IMG/VR virus record: IMGVR_UViG_2563366885_000004
Origin: a virus
Lineage: Duplodnaviria; Heunggongvirae; Uroviricota; Caudoviricetes
Reading direction: 5' to 3' (one strand)
DNA length: 15,471 bases
The notes beneath the pieces were generated by a model. That model did no database searches and was not told the origin of the DNA. It was given only the letters and a program-made list of their open reading frames with translations. The stretch's first letter is position 1. Every line of letters begins with the position of its first letter. Shown here piece after piece: positions 1-15,471 of the stretch. Position numbers and translations under genes: made by a program.

Positions 1-390
1 TTACTCTTTTTTCTCCGTATCTGCATCGGGTTCATCAGCAAATAGCTTGCCCTGCATCCGATCCAGTTCTTCTTTTCTTACCCGCTTAACCACGCTGTAG
101 ACCCACTGAAGCGAAACACCAAATTTGCGGGCCAGTTCGTGGTGGTTGCGTCCGTTAAACTCCCTGAAGATTTCCCGGTCGCGCTGACTGACCTTCCATA
201 CCATGCCCATCGGGAAATAAACGTTTTGCCCGCCCCAGACCTGCATCATTCGGTTCGCGACGGCCTGACCAATCTGGTCGGCAACTTCGGGCTCAATATC
301 AATAATCTCGCGAACGGTCTCAGAGGTATGCTGTGCCAGTTCCACCAGGAGTTCCGGCCCCTTACTTCGAAACTGATTCAGGTCGCTCAT
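1..390 (-). CDS. mor: Mor/C-family middle-operon transcriptional activator
   Basis: 129 aa, the same length as Mu Mor. C-terminal HTH pattern FNGRN..EL...GVS...VY shared with Mu Mor (from memory). Last gene of the leftward early operon; GGGAG RBS 6 nt upstream of ATG at 390. Confidence 0.75.
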   Translation of the reverse strand: MSDLNQFRSKGPELLVELAQHTSETVREIIDIEPEVADQIGQAVANRMMQVWGGQNVYFPMGMVWKVSQRDREIFREFNGRNHHELARKFGVSLQWVYSVVKRVRKEELDRMQGKLFADEPDADTEKKE

Positions 391-814
391 GTTTGACTCC
401 CGCAGCTCTGCGCTGCCACTTCTTCAGTTTCTCAATAACACTGCTTGCCTGTTCAGTACTGAGCCAGCGCAGGGCGCTGATGCCCGTTTCCCGCTTGATC
501 CACCCCGCTAATGCATTTTCTGAACGGTCACGAACAATGCCGGCAGCAGCCATTTCAAGCCATAGCGCACGAATTTTCCTGGACTGCGGATGGTTATCCA
601 GCGGTAAACCGGAGCTGGCTTTTCTGGCTGGTTTAACGCGAAAGCCTTTCTTTTTCATGGATTCCAGCACGCAGTTTAGTTGTGTGGTATCCATTCCTTT
701 GGTTGAGGCTTTACCGGTCAGCCCCTGTAACATCTGGCGGTAGGTGTCTTCATCCATACCCAGTTCATTACGGGCAATATGAATGAGCTGGATAAGACGT
801 TGTTTAGTCATCAT
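362..814 (-). CDS. gemA: GemA-like early protein (Mu gp16 family)
   Basis: Sits immediately upstream of mor, as in Mu. Track ORF runs to 853, but the ATG at 814 has an AAGGAG RBS with 5-nt spacer, so 814 is the preferred start. 3' end overlaps the mor start by 29 nt. Confidence 0.55.
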   Translation of the reverse strand: MMTKQRLIQLIHIARNELGMDEDTYRQMLQGLTGKASTKGMDTTQLNCVLESMKKKGFRVKPARKASSGLPLDNHPQSRKIRALWLEMAAAGIVRDRSENALAGWIKRETGISALRWLSTEQASSVIEKLKKWQRRAAGVKHERPESVSK

Positions 815-1019
815 CGTTGCTCCTTTTACCTGCGCCACCGATATAATCGACATATAAAGGAAGCGCCACAGGCCAGTACAGGAACATCACCGACCAACTA
901 ATCCAGTAGCCGGCACCACTGTAACGTGAATAAAACCCTGAACGGCGGTGCAGTTCAGCAGTACACCAACCGACAAAACAATACCAGAACAGGGCACATA
1001 CAACAGATTCAGCAGTCAT
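804..1019 (-). CDS. Small hydrophobic early protein (about 71 aa, predicted membrane protein)
   Basis: Internal ATG at 1019 of track ORF 804..1175. Trp/Tyr/Phe-rich hydrophobic sequence. Fits the operon frame chain, overlapping the upstream 76-aa gene by 11 nt. Confidence 0.35.
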   Translation of the reverse strand: MTAESVVCALFWYCFVGWCTAELHRRSGFYSRYSGAGYWISWSVMFLYWPVALPLYVDYIGGAGKRSNDDD

Positions 1020-1239
1020 TCTGAATATCCCCCCAACTGATATGAATATTACGGGCAGCAATGACAGGGTCGTTATTCCACCATGCACCTGACATGTATT
1101 TTTCAACCTGTTCGCGTCCGGCAATAACACCAATTGTGATCCCCGGCCTGACGTTCTTAAAAAAGGCGCGGGCAAAAAGGTATCTGGCAGATATTCGGCA
1201 GGCTTTTAATTTCCGGCTTTTACCTGATAGCGTAATCAT
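1009..1239 (-). CDS. Hypothetical small early protein (76 aa)
   Basis: Start codon overlaps the stop of the upstream DUF2786-like gene (ATGA overlap at 1236..1239), indicating translational coupling. Confidence 0.4.
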   Translation of the reverse strand: MITLSGKSRKLKACRISARYLFARAFFKNVRPGITIGVIAGREQVEKYMSGAWWNNDPVIAARNIHISWGDIQNDC

Positions 1240-1919
1240 CTGGCCTCCAGTTTCTGTTGTTCCTGCCCACTGACCGGGCGGTGCAGTCTGACGTTCTGCC
1301 CTTCACGAAACCCCGCATAGCGCGAGGCGTCGCCATTGCGGCTTCTTCCCGGTTTACGCGCCCTGGTGGTTTGCGTCTGCGGGTATTTATGTTCCAGCCA
1401 CTGCTGCATCAGTTCACGTTCGTCATCGGTCAAGGCGAAGGACTGTATTTCACTGATAACGGCCAGCACCCAGCCTTCAGCAAACTGGTCTCCACGGCTG
1501 GTGCGGGTGGCGGTTTTTATTCTTTTGTTCTGTGCACTGATATACTGCTGACGCGCCTTTTTCAGCTGACGGGCCAGCACTTCCCAGGTGTACGCGGCCA
1601 GTGCGGCCCGTTCCCGGTTGCCGTAGAACCCCACACCCGGATATGTGCCGGGGTGAATGATGGAGTTAACACCAAATGCCTCGCGGATGATGTTCATCAG
1701 GCCCAGCATGTAGCGCGGCGGACGGAGGCTGCCTGTCGGCCAGTAGTGACTGATGGTTTCATCAATATCACTCATGGCGATGTCGGAATGTGTGATGCCG
1801 TGAACATCCATCAGTTTACGGGCGCGGCGCAGTGCCAGAGCAGCCTCATTCGGGTTGCCGGATGCTGCCAGCGCCAGCAACTTTTTCAGTTTCTCAATGT
1901 GCTTATCCTGGTCTGTCAT
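1236..1919 (-). CDS. DUF2786-like phage protein (227 aa)
   Basis: N-terminal motif KLKKLLALAASGNPNEAALALRRARKLM resembles the DUF2786 signature as I recall it. ATGA overlap with the upstream gene at 1916..1919. Confidence 0.55.
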   Translation of the reverse strand: MTDQDKHIEKLKKLLALAASGNPNEAALALRRARKLMDVHGITHSDIAMSDIDETISHYWPTGSLRPPRYMLGLMNIIREAFGVNSIIHPGTYPGVGFYGNRERAALAAYTWEVLARQLKKARQQYISAQNKRIKTATRTSRGDQFAEGWVLAVISEIQSFALTDDERELMQQWLEHKYPQTQTTRARKPGRSRNGDASRYAGFREGQNVRLHRPVSGQEQQKLEAR

Positions 1920-14132: not shown

Positions 14133-14455
14133 CACTGCAGGTTGAATTCTGGACGGTGGTGAGTTTTCTGCTCACCTTCATGGGGTTTGTGGGAGGGCTC
14201 GCCAAATGGTTGTTCAGTAAAACAGAAGAACGCCAGGCGGCACGATTCGCCTCCCTTGAACAGGCCCTGCAACAATCCGCCTCCAACTGGGGCGAGCTGG
14301 AAAAAGAATTTATGCGATTTAAAGCGGATTTACCGCTGAATTATGTCCGTCGAGAGGATTATATCCGTGGCCAGACAGTCATTGAGGCCAAACTGGACGC
14401 GCTTTATAACAAACTGGAAGTGGTACAGCAGTACCGCAATACCGGAGGTCAATAA
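14129..14455 (+). CDS. Late-operon membrane protein (N-terminal TM plus coiled coil; Mu gp25-position)
   Basis: ATGA overlap with the Rz stop. GGAAGGA RBS. TM segment VVSFLLTFMGFVGGLAKWLF. Confidence 0.5.
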   Translation: MTLQVEFWTVVSFLLTFMGFVGGLAKWLFSKTEERQAARFASLEQALQQSASNWGELEKEFMRFKADLPLNYVRREDYIRGQTVIEAKLDALYNKLEVVQQYRNTGGQ

Positions 14456-14766
14456 TGGTCGATATTACCCGGGTACGCCGCGAATCCCTGCGCTGGAGTC
14501 TGCTGGTTGCCCTGAACAAGACCCGCCCTTACACCGCCAGCGAGACGCTGCTGCTGGATGTGTCCCGTGCCATCTACCCGGACACCACACCGCTGGAACT
14601 GCGACGCGAACTGGATTATCTGGCTGACCGTAAAATGGTTGATCTGGAGAAAAAACCTTCTGGCGACTGGTTTGCTGACCTGACCCGCCTCGGCGTAGAC
14701 CTGGTGGAATACACCGTGGAATGTGGTCCGGGTATTGCCCGCCCGGAAAAGTACTGGAGTGAATAA
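14455..14766 (+). CDS. Late-operon protein (Mu gp26-position), 103 aa
   Basis: GGAGG RBS. TAATG overlap with the upstream stop. No family recognised. Confidence 0.5.
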   Translation: MVDITRVRRESLRWSLLVALNKTRPYTASETLLLDVSRAIYPDTTPLELRRELDYLADRKMVDLEKKPSGDWFADLTRLGVDLVEYTVECGPGIARPEKYWSE

Positions 14767-15236
14767 TGGCCAGACGCAGCACAATAGAAAAGCTGCCGGA
14801 AGATGTGCGCCGCTGGCTTGAACGGGCGCTGACTGAATCCGGCTTCAGCGGGTATAACGAGCTGGAGTCCCTGCTGCGTGAGCGGGGGTACGTCATCAGC
14901 AAATCCGCTATCCATCGCTATGGACAGAAGATTGAGCGCCGCTATGGTGCTATCCGTGCGGCAACAGAAGCGGCCCGCATGCTGACCGAAGGCGCAGCAG
15001 ACGATCAGGATGCGCGTTCGGAGGCTGTGATAGCCCTTATTCAGACCGAGCTGTTCGAGAGTATTGTCCAGTTGCAGGAGGCGGAAGAAGGCGAAGTCGA
15101 TCCTAAAGAACGCGTGGCCCTGCTGTCGAAGGTGGCGAAGAATGTGGCTACGCTGTCCCGCGCGTCCGTCAACCTCAAAAAGTTCCAGTCTGAAGTGTCA
15201 ACGCCAAGATTATTGGCCGTTTTTCGCCATTTTTAA
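14766..15236 (+). pseudogene. Mu gp27-like small-terminase/DNA-binding protein, 3' end apparently replaced by IS sequence
   Basis: N-terminus MARRSTIEKLPEDVRRWLERAL is typical of small-terminase-like DNA-binding proteins. The reading frame runs into the IS terminal repeat region and stops at 15234..15236, so the last ~13 codons are probably IS-derived. Confidence 0.5.
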
Positions 15237-15471
15237 TGTCCGCTATTGGTCATTAATGTTGTCCGCTTTCCGCCATTTCATCATCACTGATTGGCGTGGC
15301 GTTTTTTGCCAGCACTCCCGCTTTGCGTTTTTCCTTTAATCGGTAGCTTTCTCCTTTGATGTTCAGTGTGGTTGAGTGGTGGAGCAGTCGATCCAGGATT
15401 GCCGTTGCCAGCACGTTATCGCCGAACATCTCTCCCCAGTCGGCGAACCCTTTATTTGACGTCAGCACGAT
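15196..15471 (-). mobile_element. IS21-family insertion sequence, right end (partial; continues beyond the window)
   Basis: IstB C-terminal coding sequence followed by about 55 bp containing reiterated short motifs (CGCCATTT x2, GTCCGCT x2, ATTGG x2), as expected for multi-site IS21 termini. Junction position is approximate. Confidence 0.55.
15253..15468 (-). CDS. istB: IstB-like ATPase, C-terminal fragment (5' part lies outside the window)
   Basis: [48 protein letters not shown] matches the conserved IstB C-terminus (DRLxHH...GESYRL). Confidence 0.7.

What the first reader, a model, noticed from the sequence alone, without database searches (positions are those of the whole stretch)
1..15471. 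Signs of prophage decay alongside retained immunity and exclusion genes
Two independent lesions hit lytic functions (the gam nonsense codon and the IS insertion in the packaging operon), while the repressor, the RexAB-like cassette and dam appear intact. That pattern fits a domesticated prophage kept for host-beneficial defence functions rather than an active virus.
Basis: inference. Interest (0 to 1): 0.5.

Follow-up and report, generated by a model that had tools for sequence, protein, structure and literature searches.

The report
Freshly IS-crippled Mu-like prophage

Summary
All parts of the observation are real. gam carries one in-frame stop (TGG to TGA, W105*). An ISEc62-like IS21-family element with a 4-bp target duplication splits the Mu gp27-type small-terminase gene. 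The CI-type repressor, a two-gene cassette and a Dam methylase are intact.

The domestication reading is not supported:
- The IS junction is in none of 5,426 complete E. coli genomes.
- Five sister prophages lack the IS and are identical over all 15,196 bases.
- Transposase, MuB, Mor and the lysis genes are intact.
- gam lies in Mu's dispensable "semi-essential" region.
- The same TGA allele occurs in near-identical prophages at other chromosomal sites, so it circulates and is not private decay.
- Two lesions missing the 16% of the window that is immunity, defence or dam is expected about 70% of the time.

Best reading: an otherwise intact BcepMu-like prophage, very recently made packaging-defective by chance.

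The parts
1..390 (-). mor (late/middle transcription activator). The window starts at its stop codon, about 170 bp inside the prophage left end.
   Evidence: PGAP 'Mor transcription activator family' in the identical sister locus. PF08765 Mor on the gene calls. Left end placed by junction matches.
362..811 (-). gemA / gp16-family gene
   Evidence: annotation; PF06252 GemA.
2792..3322 (-). gam pseudogene (Mu Gam-type host-nuclease inhibitor). The TGA stop is at codon 105 (window 3008-3010); the SNP is at 3008.
   Evidence: (PF07352 over residues 23-104).
3622..4788 (-). MuB-like transposition ATPase (ExeA/AAA_22), intact
4799..6568 (-). DDE transposase (rve), 589 aa, intact
7494..7802 (-). Early-operon HTH regulator (102 aa)
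   Evidence: HTH_IclR and phrog_1368 transcriptional regulator.
7799..8023 (-). 74-aa ORF at the head of the early operon, divergent from the repressor. Candidate Ner/Cro-like gene.
   Evidence: Called in the source scaffold. Weak, sub-threshold HTH_35 hit, E 0.007. Not annotated by PGAP in the sister genome.
8112..8528 (+). CI-type immunity repressor, 138 aa, intact
   Evidence: PF07022 Phage_CI_repr, E 1e-17. PHROG transcriptional repressor families.
8651..9544 (+). RexA-fold protein, 297 aa, DUF6731 family, intact
9504..9941 (+). RexB-like four-helix membrane protein, 145 aa. It overlaps the upstream gene by 41 nt.
   Evidence: Gene call in the source. Four hydrophobic segments at positions like those of lambda RexB. 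Conserved partner of DUF6731 genes in other prophages.
9994..10761 (-). Orphan Dam-type (D12 class) N6-adenine DNA methyltransferase, intact
   Evidence: PF02086, E 1e-29. PADLOC MTase_II, E 1e-112. 255 aa in PGAP and the gene calls.
12405..14132 (+). Lysis genes: holin (12405-12755), SLT transglycosylase endolysin (12758-13498), lipoprotein (13482-14132). All intact.
   Evidence: Holin_2-3, SLT.
14766..15195 (+). 5' part (143 codons) of the Mu gp27 / DUF3486 small-terminase-type gene, cut by the IS. The intact gene is 181 codons.
   Evidence: PF11985, E 9e-45, profile positions 1-137 of 173; phrog_426 terminase small subunit. Alignment to the intact sister. The 51-aa remainder lies beyond the IS.
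15192..15195 (.). Target-site duplication GAAG, left copy. The right copy is at L004 12849-12852, outside the window.
   Evidence: The reference ISEc62-family copy also has a 4-bp duplication, TGAA.
15196..15471 (-). End of an ISEc62-like IS21-family element: terminal repeat TGTCAACGCC... plus the 3' end of istB. The window stops at a scaffold gap inside the IS.
   Evidence: (PF01695 IstB_IS21).

Best explanation
The window is the early, immunity, lysis and start-of-packaging part of a BcepMu-like (Bcepmuvirus-type) transposable prophage. It is inserted just downstream of nagE in an E. coli draft genome (GCA_000408125.1). The phage type is recently mobile and otherwise complete. Two unrelated events mark this copy.

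(a) gam W105* (TGG to TGA).
- It was inherited with the prophage by a clonal lineage.
- The same allele is also present in other related prophages.
- gam is accessory in Mu-type phages. It protects linear DNA ends from RecBCD.
- The stop is UGA followed by C, a context I recall as leaky. I therefore infer a hypomorphic or null allele that does not stop the phage life cycle.

(b) A strain-private ISEc62-like insertion.
- It removes the last 38 codons of the gp27-type small-terminase gene.
- It places 2.1 kb of antisense IS between the late promoter region and the genes for terminase large subunit, portal and head.
- I infer that this blocks DNA packaging, so this copy can probably still derepress, transpose and lyse but not make infectious particles.

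The repressor, the RexAB-type cassette and dam are intact simply because almost nothing in the prophage has had time to change. The repressor is additionally indispensable because the genes it silences are still lethal. The RexA-fold plus 4-TM pair is most likely co-transcribed with the repressor in the lysogen. By analogy with lambda RexAB, it would act as an abortive-infection or exclusion module: a DNA-binding sensor that activates a membrane effector.

Shown: both lesions, their age order (TGA first, IS later), the privacy of the IS, gene integrity, and the RexA fold.
Inferred: the packaging defect, polarity, co-transcription, and the exclusion function.
For: Identity of the element:
- 97% identical to Escherichia phage PhiKM, classified in Bcepmuvirus.
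- 100% identical over 1-15196 to five complete E. coli chromosomes.
- It has an rve transposase, MuB-like ATPase, Gam, GemA and Mor.

Recent mobility:
- Prophages with the same immunity module sit in rlmI, in wcaJ, upstream of flgB, and next to nagE.

Completeness:
- The sister prophage in FDAARGOS_1258 runs through tail genes to a Gin-type invertase. Only gam and the invertible tail-fibre fragments are flagged.
- In the source, the 7.6 kb after the IS is 99.99% identical to the sister, with the same gene lengths except the first, where the start was called differently (531 against 513 aa).

IS insertion:
- Both junctions, the 4-bp duplication and the terminal repeats are present.
- The junction is absent from 5,426 complete genomes and from the species-representative genomes.
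- The unique fusion ORF is found on a single contig.

gam:
- It is a single SNP.
- TGA is in 5 complete genomes and TGG in 611.
- At least 4 of the 5 TGA genomes share the nagE junction.
- The truncated product is on 620 contigs.
- The same codon occurs at irp2, ycaL and azoR-hrpA sites with other immunity modules.
- L007 and L010 are 99.98% identical over 10.7 kb, lie at different sites, and both carry TGA.
- gam lies in the semi-essential region (PMC8705779). A Mu derivative deleted for that whole region was still used to infect cells and yielded lysogens (PMC3325207).

Cassette.
- No terminator-like site lies between the repressor and the cassette.
Against: - No expression, induction or plaque data exist for this prophage.
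- The part of the source prophage beyond about 7.6 kb right of the IS could not be read, so further lesions there are possible.
- Essentiality of gp27 and polarity of the IS are inferred from the Mu literature and from the PHROG annotation. They are not shown for this phage.
- The spread of the TGA allele could partly reflect gene conversion between co-resident prophages. L007 and L008 are in one genome, and L008 equals PhiKM plus this one SNP. That would weaken the inference that TGA phages still complete the life cycle.
- The RexAB analogy rests on a medium-confidence model (pLDDT 75.5). No sequence-level match to the RexA or RexB families was found.
Confidence: 0.72

Rival explanations
1. 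First reader's reading. This is a domesticated (cryptic) prophage whose lytic functions are decaying. Selection keeps the repressor, the RexAB-like exclusion cassette and dam because they benefit the host.
For: - The cassette really is RexAB-like and intact.
- The IS very probably abolishes packaging.
- The nagE-site prophage with the gam stop is inherited vertically in a lineage seen on many contigs. 21 of the 24 longest contigs read carry this arrangement.
Against: - The IS junction is in 0 of 5,426 complete genomes.
- Sisters without it differ by 0 of 15,196 bases, so there has been no time for selection to sort genes.
- Transposase, MuB, Mor, GemA, holin and endolysin are intact. So is everything read downstream: terminase large subunit, portal and head genes.
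- gam is non-essential in Mu, and the allele occurs in mobile relatives.
- Two lesions missing 16% of the sequence has probability about 0.70.
Confidence: 0.08
2. The prophage is still a functional virus in the source strain. Three routes are possible. The truncated gp27 (143 of 181 residues) may retain activity and downstream genes may be read through. A co-resident related prophage may supply packaging functions in trans. Or precise loss of the IS may restore the gene in a subpopulation.
For: - Many E. coli genomes carry more than one prophage of this family, up to 12 matching places per genome.
- One genome has two copies with different immunity modules.
- All other genes read are intact.
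Against: - The IS removes the C-terminal fifth of the protein and separates the late genes from their upstream region by 2.1 kb of antisense DNA.
- Precise excision of IS21-family elements is rare (established knowledge, not tested here).
- No second copy could be looked for in the source genome.
Confidence: 0.1
3. The gam stop is adaptive rather than decay. Losing or strongly lowering Gam could be selected for two reasons. Leaky Gam may harm the lysogen by blocking RecBCD repair. Or host defences that sense RecBCD inhibition or DNA-end binders may target Gam-positive phages. Readthrough of UGA-C by tRNA-Trp would give a trickle of wild-type protein.
For: - The identical codon change is on three early-region haplotypes, with three immunity modules, at four or more insertion sites.
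- It is on 620 contigs.
- The stop replaces a Trp codon and is followed by C.
- A preprint reports that phage DNA-end-binding proteins that antagonise RecBCD sensitise phages to Gabija (PMC12407980, abstract seen).
Against: - The allele is rare among complete genomes: 5 against 611.
- Most TGA contigs belong to one clonal arrangement at nagE.
- Spread by recombination or gene conversion of a neutral allele explains the data equally well.
- If loss of Gam were selected, many different inactivating mutations would be expected. One recurring codon is what was seen.
Confidence: 0.12

Closest known systems
Escherichia phage PhiKM (PQ738613) and BcepMu-like transposable phages (genus Bcepmuvirus)
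   Same: - 97% nucleotide identity over 79% of the window.
- Same gene order: mor-gemA-...-gam-MuB-transposase leftward, then immunity, dam, lysis, gp27 and terminase rightward.
- Inserts at many different chromosomal sites, as a transposable phage should.
   Different: - PhiKM has an intact gam (TGG) and no IS.
- Most of 6556-10037, which spans the immunity region, has no megablast match in PhiKM, and no RexAB-like gene is annotated there.
Bacteriophage lambda cI-rexA-rexB, and the RexAB-type system of P. putida prophage P1 (PMC12894663)
   Same: - A CI-type repressor is followed on the same strand by a soluble protein of about 280-300 aa with the RexA fold, then an overlapping four-helix membrane protein of about 145 aa.
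- The structural neighbours are the same as for RexA: RdgC, IML3/CHL4.
   Different: - No detectable sequence similarity to Pfam RexA/RexB or the PADLOC models.
- The large protein belongs to DUF6731.
- The host element is a Mu-like phage, not a lambdoid phage.
- The same cassette also occurs far from any repressor in lambdoid prophages.
- No phenotype is known.
Mu gam within the semi-essential early region
   Same: - Pfam Phage_Mu_Gam match.
- Position just downstream of the transposition genes.
- In Mu the region is dispensable for growth.
   Different: Here the gene is cut at codon 105 of 176, which leaves profile positions 1-81 of 149.
IS21-family element ISEc62 (istA/istB)
   Same: - 99.6-99.8% identical to an annotated copy.
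- TGTCA...TGACA ends and a 4-bp target duplication.
   Different: Nothing notable. The middle of the element is an assembly gap in the source scaffold.
Classical cryptic or domesticated E. coli prophages such as Rac, e14, DLP12 and CP4-57 (from general knowledge)
   Same: A defective prophage that still carries a repressor and an accessory or exclusion gene.
   Different: Those elements have lost large blocks of structural and replication genes and are fixed across lineages. This one is complete apart from one SNP and one private IS.

Membership tests
BcepMu-like transposable phage (Bcepmuvirus-type) | DDE (rve) transposase plus MuB-like ATPase, with Gam, GemA and Mor | tested here: met
BcepMu-like transposable phage (Bcepmuvirus-type) | Near-random chromosomal insertion, that is, different flanks in different hosts | tested here: met
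   Sites seen: nagE, rlmI, wcaJ, flgB upstream, irp2 (two positions), ycaL, azoR-hrpA.
BcepMu-like transposable phage (Bcepmuvirus-type) | Close nucleotide similarity to a classified member | tested here: met
   97% to PhiKM, taxonomy line Bcepmuvirus.
RexAB phage-exclusion system | RexA family by sequence (Pfam PF15969 or the PADLOC model) | tested here: not met
   No hit even at E 10. No PADLOC hit. BLASTP E 2.4. hhalign probability 3%.
RexAB phage-exclusion system | RexA three-dimensional fold | tested here: met
RexAB phage-exclusion system | RexB family by sequence (PF15968) | tested here: not met
   No hit. BLASTP E 0.47. hhalign probability 2%. End-to-end alignment gives 20% identity.
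RexAB phage-exclusion system | Adjacent four-helix membrane partner of about 144 aa, conserved as a pair | tested here: met
RexAB phage-exclusion system | Sits downstream of the CI-type repressor on the same strand | tested here: met
   Repressor 8112-8528, cassette 8651-9941, no terminator-like site between them. Not met in the lambdoid homologues.
RexAB phage-exclusion system | Excludes superinfecting phages; RexA binds DNA; RexB depolarises or damages the membrane | not testable with these tools
   Needs plaque assays, EMSA and membrane assays.
Domesticated / cryptic prophage | Loss of several essential lytic modules or of the element's ends | tested here: not met
   Only gp27 is disrupted. 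Transposase, MuB, Mor, lysis genes, terminase large subunit, portal and head genes are intact. The far right part of the source copy was not readable.
Domesticated / cryptic prophage | Inactivating lesions shared and fixed across a host lineage | tested here: not met
   The IS junction is in 0 of 5,426 genomes. Only the non-essential gam allele is shared.
Domesticated / cryptic prophage | Purifying selection on retained genes against neutral decay elsewhere | tested here: inconclusive
   There are 0 substitutions in 15,196 bases among sisters, so no signal is possible. The chance of the observed pattern is about 0.70.
Domesticated / cryptic prophage | No infectious particles on induction | not testable with these tools
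   Needs induction of the source strain.
IS21 family insertion sequence | istA and istB genes, terminal inverted repeats, short target-site duplication | tested here: met
Mu Gam family (PF07352) | Full-length open reading frame covering the domain | tested here: not met
   Stop at codon 105. Only profile positions 1-81 of 149 are encoded before it.

The most novel reading that the evidence does not exclude
The gam W105* codon is not decay but a circulating, possibly selected allele of an active BcepMu-like phage population. It appears on three haplotypes, with three immunity modules, at four or more insertion sites. It could let the phage or lysogen avoid Gam toxicity, or avoid host defences that sense RecBCD inhibition. 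UGA-C readthrough by tRNA-Trp would supply a low dose of wild-type Gam. Alongside it, the DUF6731 plus 4-TM pair would be a previously unlinked, widely mobile branch of RexAB-type abortive-infection systems.
Probability: 0.15. Interest if true: 0.55.

Novelty: new member of a known kind. Interest (0 to 1): 0.25.

Why it matters
The decay pattern itself is ordinary. It shows how quickly a complete transposable prophage can be disabled by a single IS hit. It also shows why "lesions in lytic genes plus intact immunity genes" cannot be read as domestication without population context.

Two modest points are worth keeping.

1. A DUF6731 protein and its small membrane partner can be assigned, by fold and gene architecture, to the RexAB type of prophage-encoded exclusion systems. 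They move as a two-gene cassette between Mu-like and lambdoid prophages of enterobacteria. No paper in the searched library mentions DUF6731.

2. One specific gam nonsense allele is shared by several distinct, apparently mobile prophages. It gives a cheap test of whether Gam is dispensable, or even costly, for this phage group.

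Tried and rejected
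- Exact search for the phage-IS junction in the species-representative genome collection gave 0 matches. The source was found instead through the unique gp27-IS fusion ORF.
- PADLOC, Pfam at E up to 10, BLASTP and hhalign against lambda RexA and RexB gave no significant sequence-level link. A profile search of the DUF6731 alignment against PDB sequences gave 0 hits. Only the structure comparison was informative.
- Literature search for DUF6731 gave 0 papers.
- The promoter and terminator scan around the immunity region found no more sites than shuffled sequence does. It only shows that no terminator-like site lies between the repressor and the cassette.
- Assembly artefact for the IS was considered and rejected: both junctions, the 4-bp duplication and exact resumption of phage sequence are present.
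- Sequencing error for the gam stop was considered and rejected: it is in five complete genomes and on 620 contigs.
- I asked whether the TGA prophages at irp2 and azoR-hrpA have TGG sisters at the same junctions, which would mean an in-situ change. No complete genome has the azoR-hrpA junction. The one irp2 prophage is an independent insertion 64 bp away and carries TGG.
- At ycaL many TGG sisters exist. The TGA copy there (L008) therefore most likely acquired the allele in place, plausibly by conversion from the co-resident L007.
- I ran no further search on a RexA-family profile, because the fold result was already clear.

Full report
**What the window is.**
- Over 79% of the window, megablast gives 97% identity to Escherichia phage PhiKM, which is classified in Bcepmuvirus.
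- Positions 1-15196 are 100% identical to five complete E. coli chromosomes.
- In the annotated sister FDAARGOS_1258 (locus L002; window coordinate = L002 minus 15000) the gene order is as follows:
  - leftward: mor, gemA, small genes, gam, a small gene, the MuB-like ATPase, an rve transposase, DUF3102 and an HTH gene;
  - rightward: a CI-type repressor and two 'hypothetical' genes;
  - leftward: dam and two small genes;
  - rightward: holin, SLT endolysin, lipoprotein, membrane proteins, the Mu gp27/DUF3486 gene, terminase large subunit, portal, and head and tail genes.
- The sister prophage continues to a Gin-type invertase with an invertible tail-fibre segment and then host DNA. Outside that segment, only gam is flagged as a pseudogene.
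- The left prophage end lies about 170 bp left of window position 1, next to nagE.

**Lesion 1, gam.**
- The reading frame 2792-3322 (-) contains exactly one stop, at codon 105 of 176.
- Against PhiKM it is one G-to-A change, TGG (Trp) to TGA, at window 3008. The next base is C.
- Only Pfam Phage_Mu_Gam profile positions 1-81 of 149 precede the stop.
- A 31-mer centred on the SNP can only match if the allele is shared. It finds the TGA form in 5 of 5,426 complete genomes, the same five that are 100% identical to the window. The TGG form is in 611 genomes.
- At least four of the five have the nagE junction.
- The allele is therefore real and clonally inherited.

**Lesion 2, the IS.**
- The window matches the intact sister up to 15196 and then diverges.
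- Window 15196-15471 is 99.6% identical to the end of an annotated IS21-like, ISEc62-family element, with istB on the minus strand.
- The fusion ORF 14766-15236 is unique enough to locate the source: GCA_000408125.1, scaffold KE136904.1.
- The window ends at the first base of a 980-N gap inside the IS. Beyond the gap come istA, the other IS end (…GGCGCTGACA) and then GAAGTACGGG…, which is the phage resuming four bases before it stopped.
- The ends are TGTCA…TGACA and the target GAAG is duplicated. The reference copy has a 4-bp duplication too. This is a genuine transposition event, not a chimeric contig.
- No complete E. coli genome has this junction. No species-representative genome has it either.
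- The 7.6 kb after the IS is 99.99% identical to the sister. Terminase large subunit, portal and head genes have the same called lengths, apart from the first, whose start was called differently.

**Order and age of the two events.** The sisters have TGA but no IS, so TGA came first and the IS is later and private. Zero substitutions in 15,196 bases between source and sisters means the common ancestor is very recent.

**Is gam a 'lytic function' whose loss signals decay?**
- In Mu and B3, gam belongs to the semi-essential early region (PMC8705779).
- A Mu derivative deleted for that whole region was still used to infect cells and yielded lysogens (PMC3325207).
- The exact 104-aa truncated product is recorded on 620 contigs.
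- Besides the nagE arrangement, the identical TGA codon is found in three other prophages:
  - L007, inserted in irp2;
  - L008, next to ycaL;
  - L010, between azoR and hrpA.
- These carry two other immunity modules and two other early-region haplotypes.
- L007 and L010 are 99.98% identical over 10.7 kb yet sit at different sites. The simplest reading is that a TGA-bearing phage lysogenised twice.
- L008 equals PhiKM over 13.7 kb except for this one base, and it shares a genome with L007. ycaL-site prophages in complete genomes are TGG. There the allele probably arrived by gene conversion.
- Either way, the stop is a circulating polymorphism of a mobile phage population, not a private scar.

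**Does the IS disable the phage?**
- It removes the last 38 of 181 codons of the gp27-type protein, which is annotated as terminase small subunit in phrog_426.
- It puts 2.1 kb of antisense IS in front of the terminase large subunit and portal genes.
- From what is known of Mu late operons, I infer loss of packaging and probably polarity. This is inference, not shown.

**The 'retained' genes.**
- The repressor (8112-8528) has a Phage_CI_repr HTH.
- Dam (9994-10761) is a D12-class orphan methyltransferase.
- Between them lies a low-GC (about 40%) two-gene cassette.
- The 297-aa protein has no Pfam or PADLOC hit itself. Its homologues at 40-76% identity are DUF6731.
- An AlphaFold model from a 17-sequence alignment has pLDDT 75.5 and pTM 0.73.
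  - Its top Foldseek hit is the same chain at E 1.1e-7 and probability 1.00.
  - The further neighbours (RdgC, IML3, CHL4, 3OH8) are the ones published for RexA itself (PMC11077077).
- The downstream gene overlaps by 41 nt. It encodes 145 aa with four hydrophobic segments placed as in the 144-aa lambda RexB.
- It aligns end to end with RexB at 20% identity, but not significantly.
- The pair is conserved as a unit in two other settings:
  - a Pectobacterium BcepMu-like prophage, at the same locus;
  - Salmonella and Scandinavium lambdoid prophages, between Q and a methyltransferase and the lysis genes.
- 'RexAB-like' is therefore justified at the level of fold and architecture. This is the same standard used for the experimentally validated P. 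putida system (PMC12894663). Family membership by sequence fails.
- The immunity-plus-cassette module occurs in 23 of 5,426 complete genomes.

**Does the pattern indicate domestication?** No.
- Immunity, cassette and dam cover about 16% of the window. Two random hits would both miss them 70% of the time.
- All other genes are intact as well, including transposase, MuB, Mor and the lysis genes.
- The only clearly disabling lesion is private to one strain.
- There has been no time for differential decay.
- With early and lysis genes intact, loss of the repressor would be lethal. Its integrity therefore says nothing about selection for host benefit.
- Prophages with the same immunity module and an intact gam sit in rlmI, in wcaJ and upstream of flgB, so this is a recently mobile phage type.

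**Verdict.** The domestication claim and the weight placed on gam are not supported. As a whole the finding is an ordinary, very recent IS knock-out of an otherwise complete Mu-like prophage. There are two minor points of interest: the DUF6731/4-TM RexAB-type cassette and the circulating gam nonsense allele.

Noticed in passing
window 3008 (gam codon 105); loci L006-L010, L001: The identical TGG-to-TGA change is present on three early-region haplotypes, with three different immunity modules, at four or more chromosomal sites. L008 differs from phage PhiKM by this single base in 13.7 kb. L007 and L010 are 99.98% identical but inserted at different sites. The cause could be recombination spread, gene conversion between co-resident prophages, or recurrence; this is unresolved.
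   Followed up: partly
window 8651-9941; L015-L019: The DUF6731 gene plus an overlapping membrane-protein gene of about 144 aa travels as a two-gene cassette. It occurs downstream of the repressor in BcepMu-like prophages (E. coli, Pectobacterium). It also occurs between Q antiterminator and N6_N4 methyltransferase/lysis genes in lambdoid prophages (Salmonella, Scandinavium).
   Followed up: partly
window 9504-9941 versus 9597-9941: PGAP annotates the RexB-like gene in sister genomes as 114 aa (start 9597), which drops the first transmembrane helix. Homologues conserve the N-terminal part, and the source's gene call is 145 aa (start 9504). The longer form is better supported.
   Followed up: partly
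window 7799-8023 (-): A 74-aa ORF lies at the head of the early operon, divergent from the repressor. It has a weak, sub-threshold hit to HTH_35, E 0.007. It is called in the source scaffold but not annotated by PGAP in the sister genome. It is a candidate Ner/Cro-like switch gene.
   Followed up: partly
between repressor and dam (window about 8000-9990); L007 2596-5226, L008 4492-4848, L019 2435-5288: This locus is a swap point for immunity and cargo. Alternatives seen are an HTH_31 repressor plus a Flk_N-like 328-aa protein plus a 193-aa protein; an HTH_3 repressor with no cargo; and, in Pectobacterium, Flk_N-like genes together with the DUF6731 cassette.
   Followed up: no
hit H21, NZ_CM180511.1 (strain E1433): A related prophage with the same immunity module carries an independent IS21-like (IS100-family) insertion elsewhere in this 15-kb region. 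IS21-family hits in this phage type may be recurrent.
   Followed up: no
L012, L013, L007, L020: Insertions of this phage type interrupt host genes in other strains: rlmI, the colanic-acid gene wcaJ, and the yersiniabactin synthetase gene irp2 at two different positions 64 bp apart. These are possible phenotypic consequences of lysogeny.
   Followed up: no
window 1 and 15471: The window boundaries are technical. Position 1 is the stop codon of mor, about 170 bp inside the prophage end. Position 15471 is the last base before a 980-N scaffold gap inside the IS. The real gap should be about 690 bp if the IS is 2,125 bp, as in the reference copy.
   Followed up: yes
window 11546-12274 (-), 11166-11570 (+), 10952-11167 (-): Three conserved phage genes of unknown function (phrog_3787, phrog_2266, phrog_4490) lie between dam and the holin. 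The 242-aa protein has only faint P-loop-like hits (AAA_30 at E 0.0075, Csx3 and mad8 at E 0.002).
   Followed up: no
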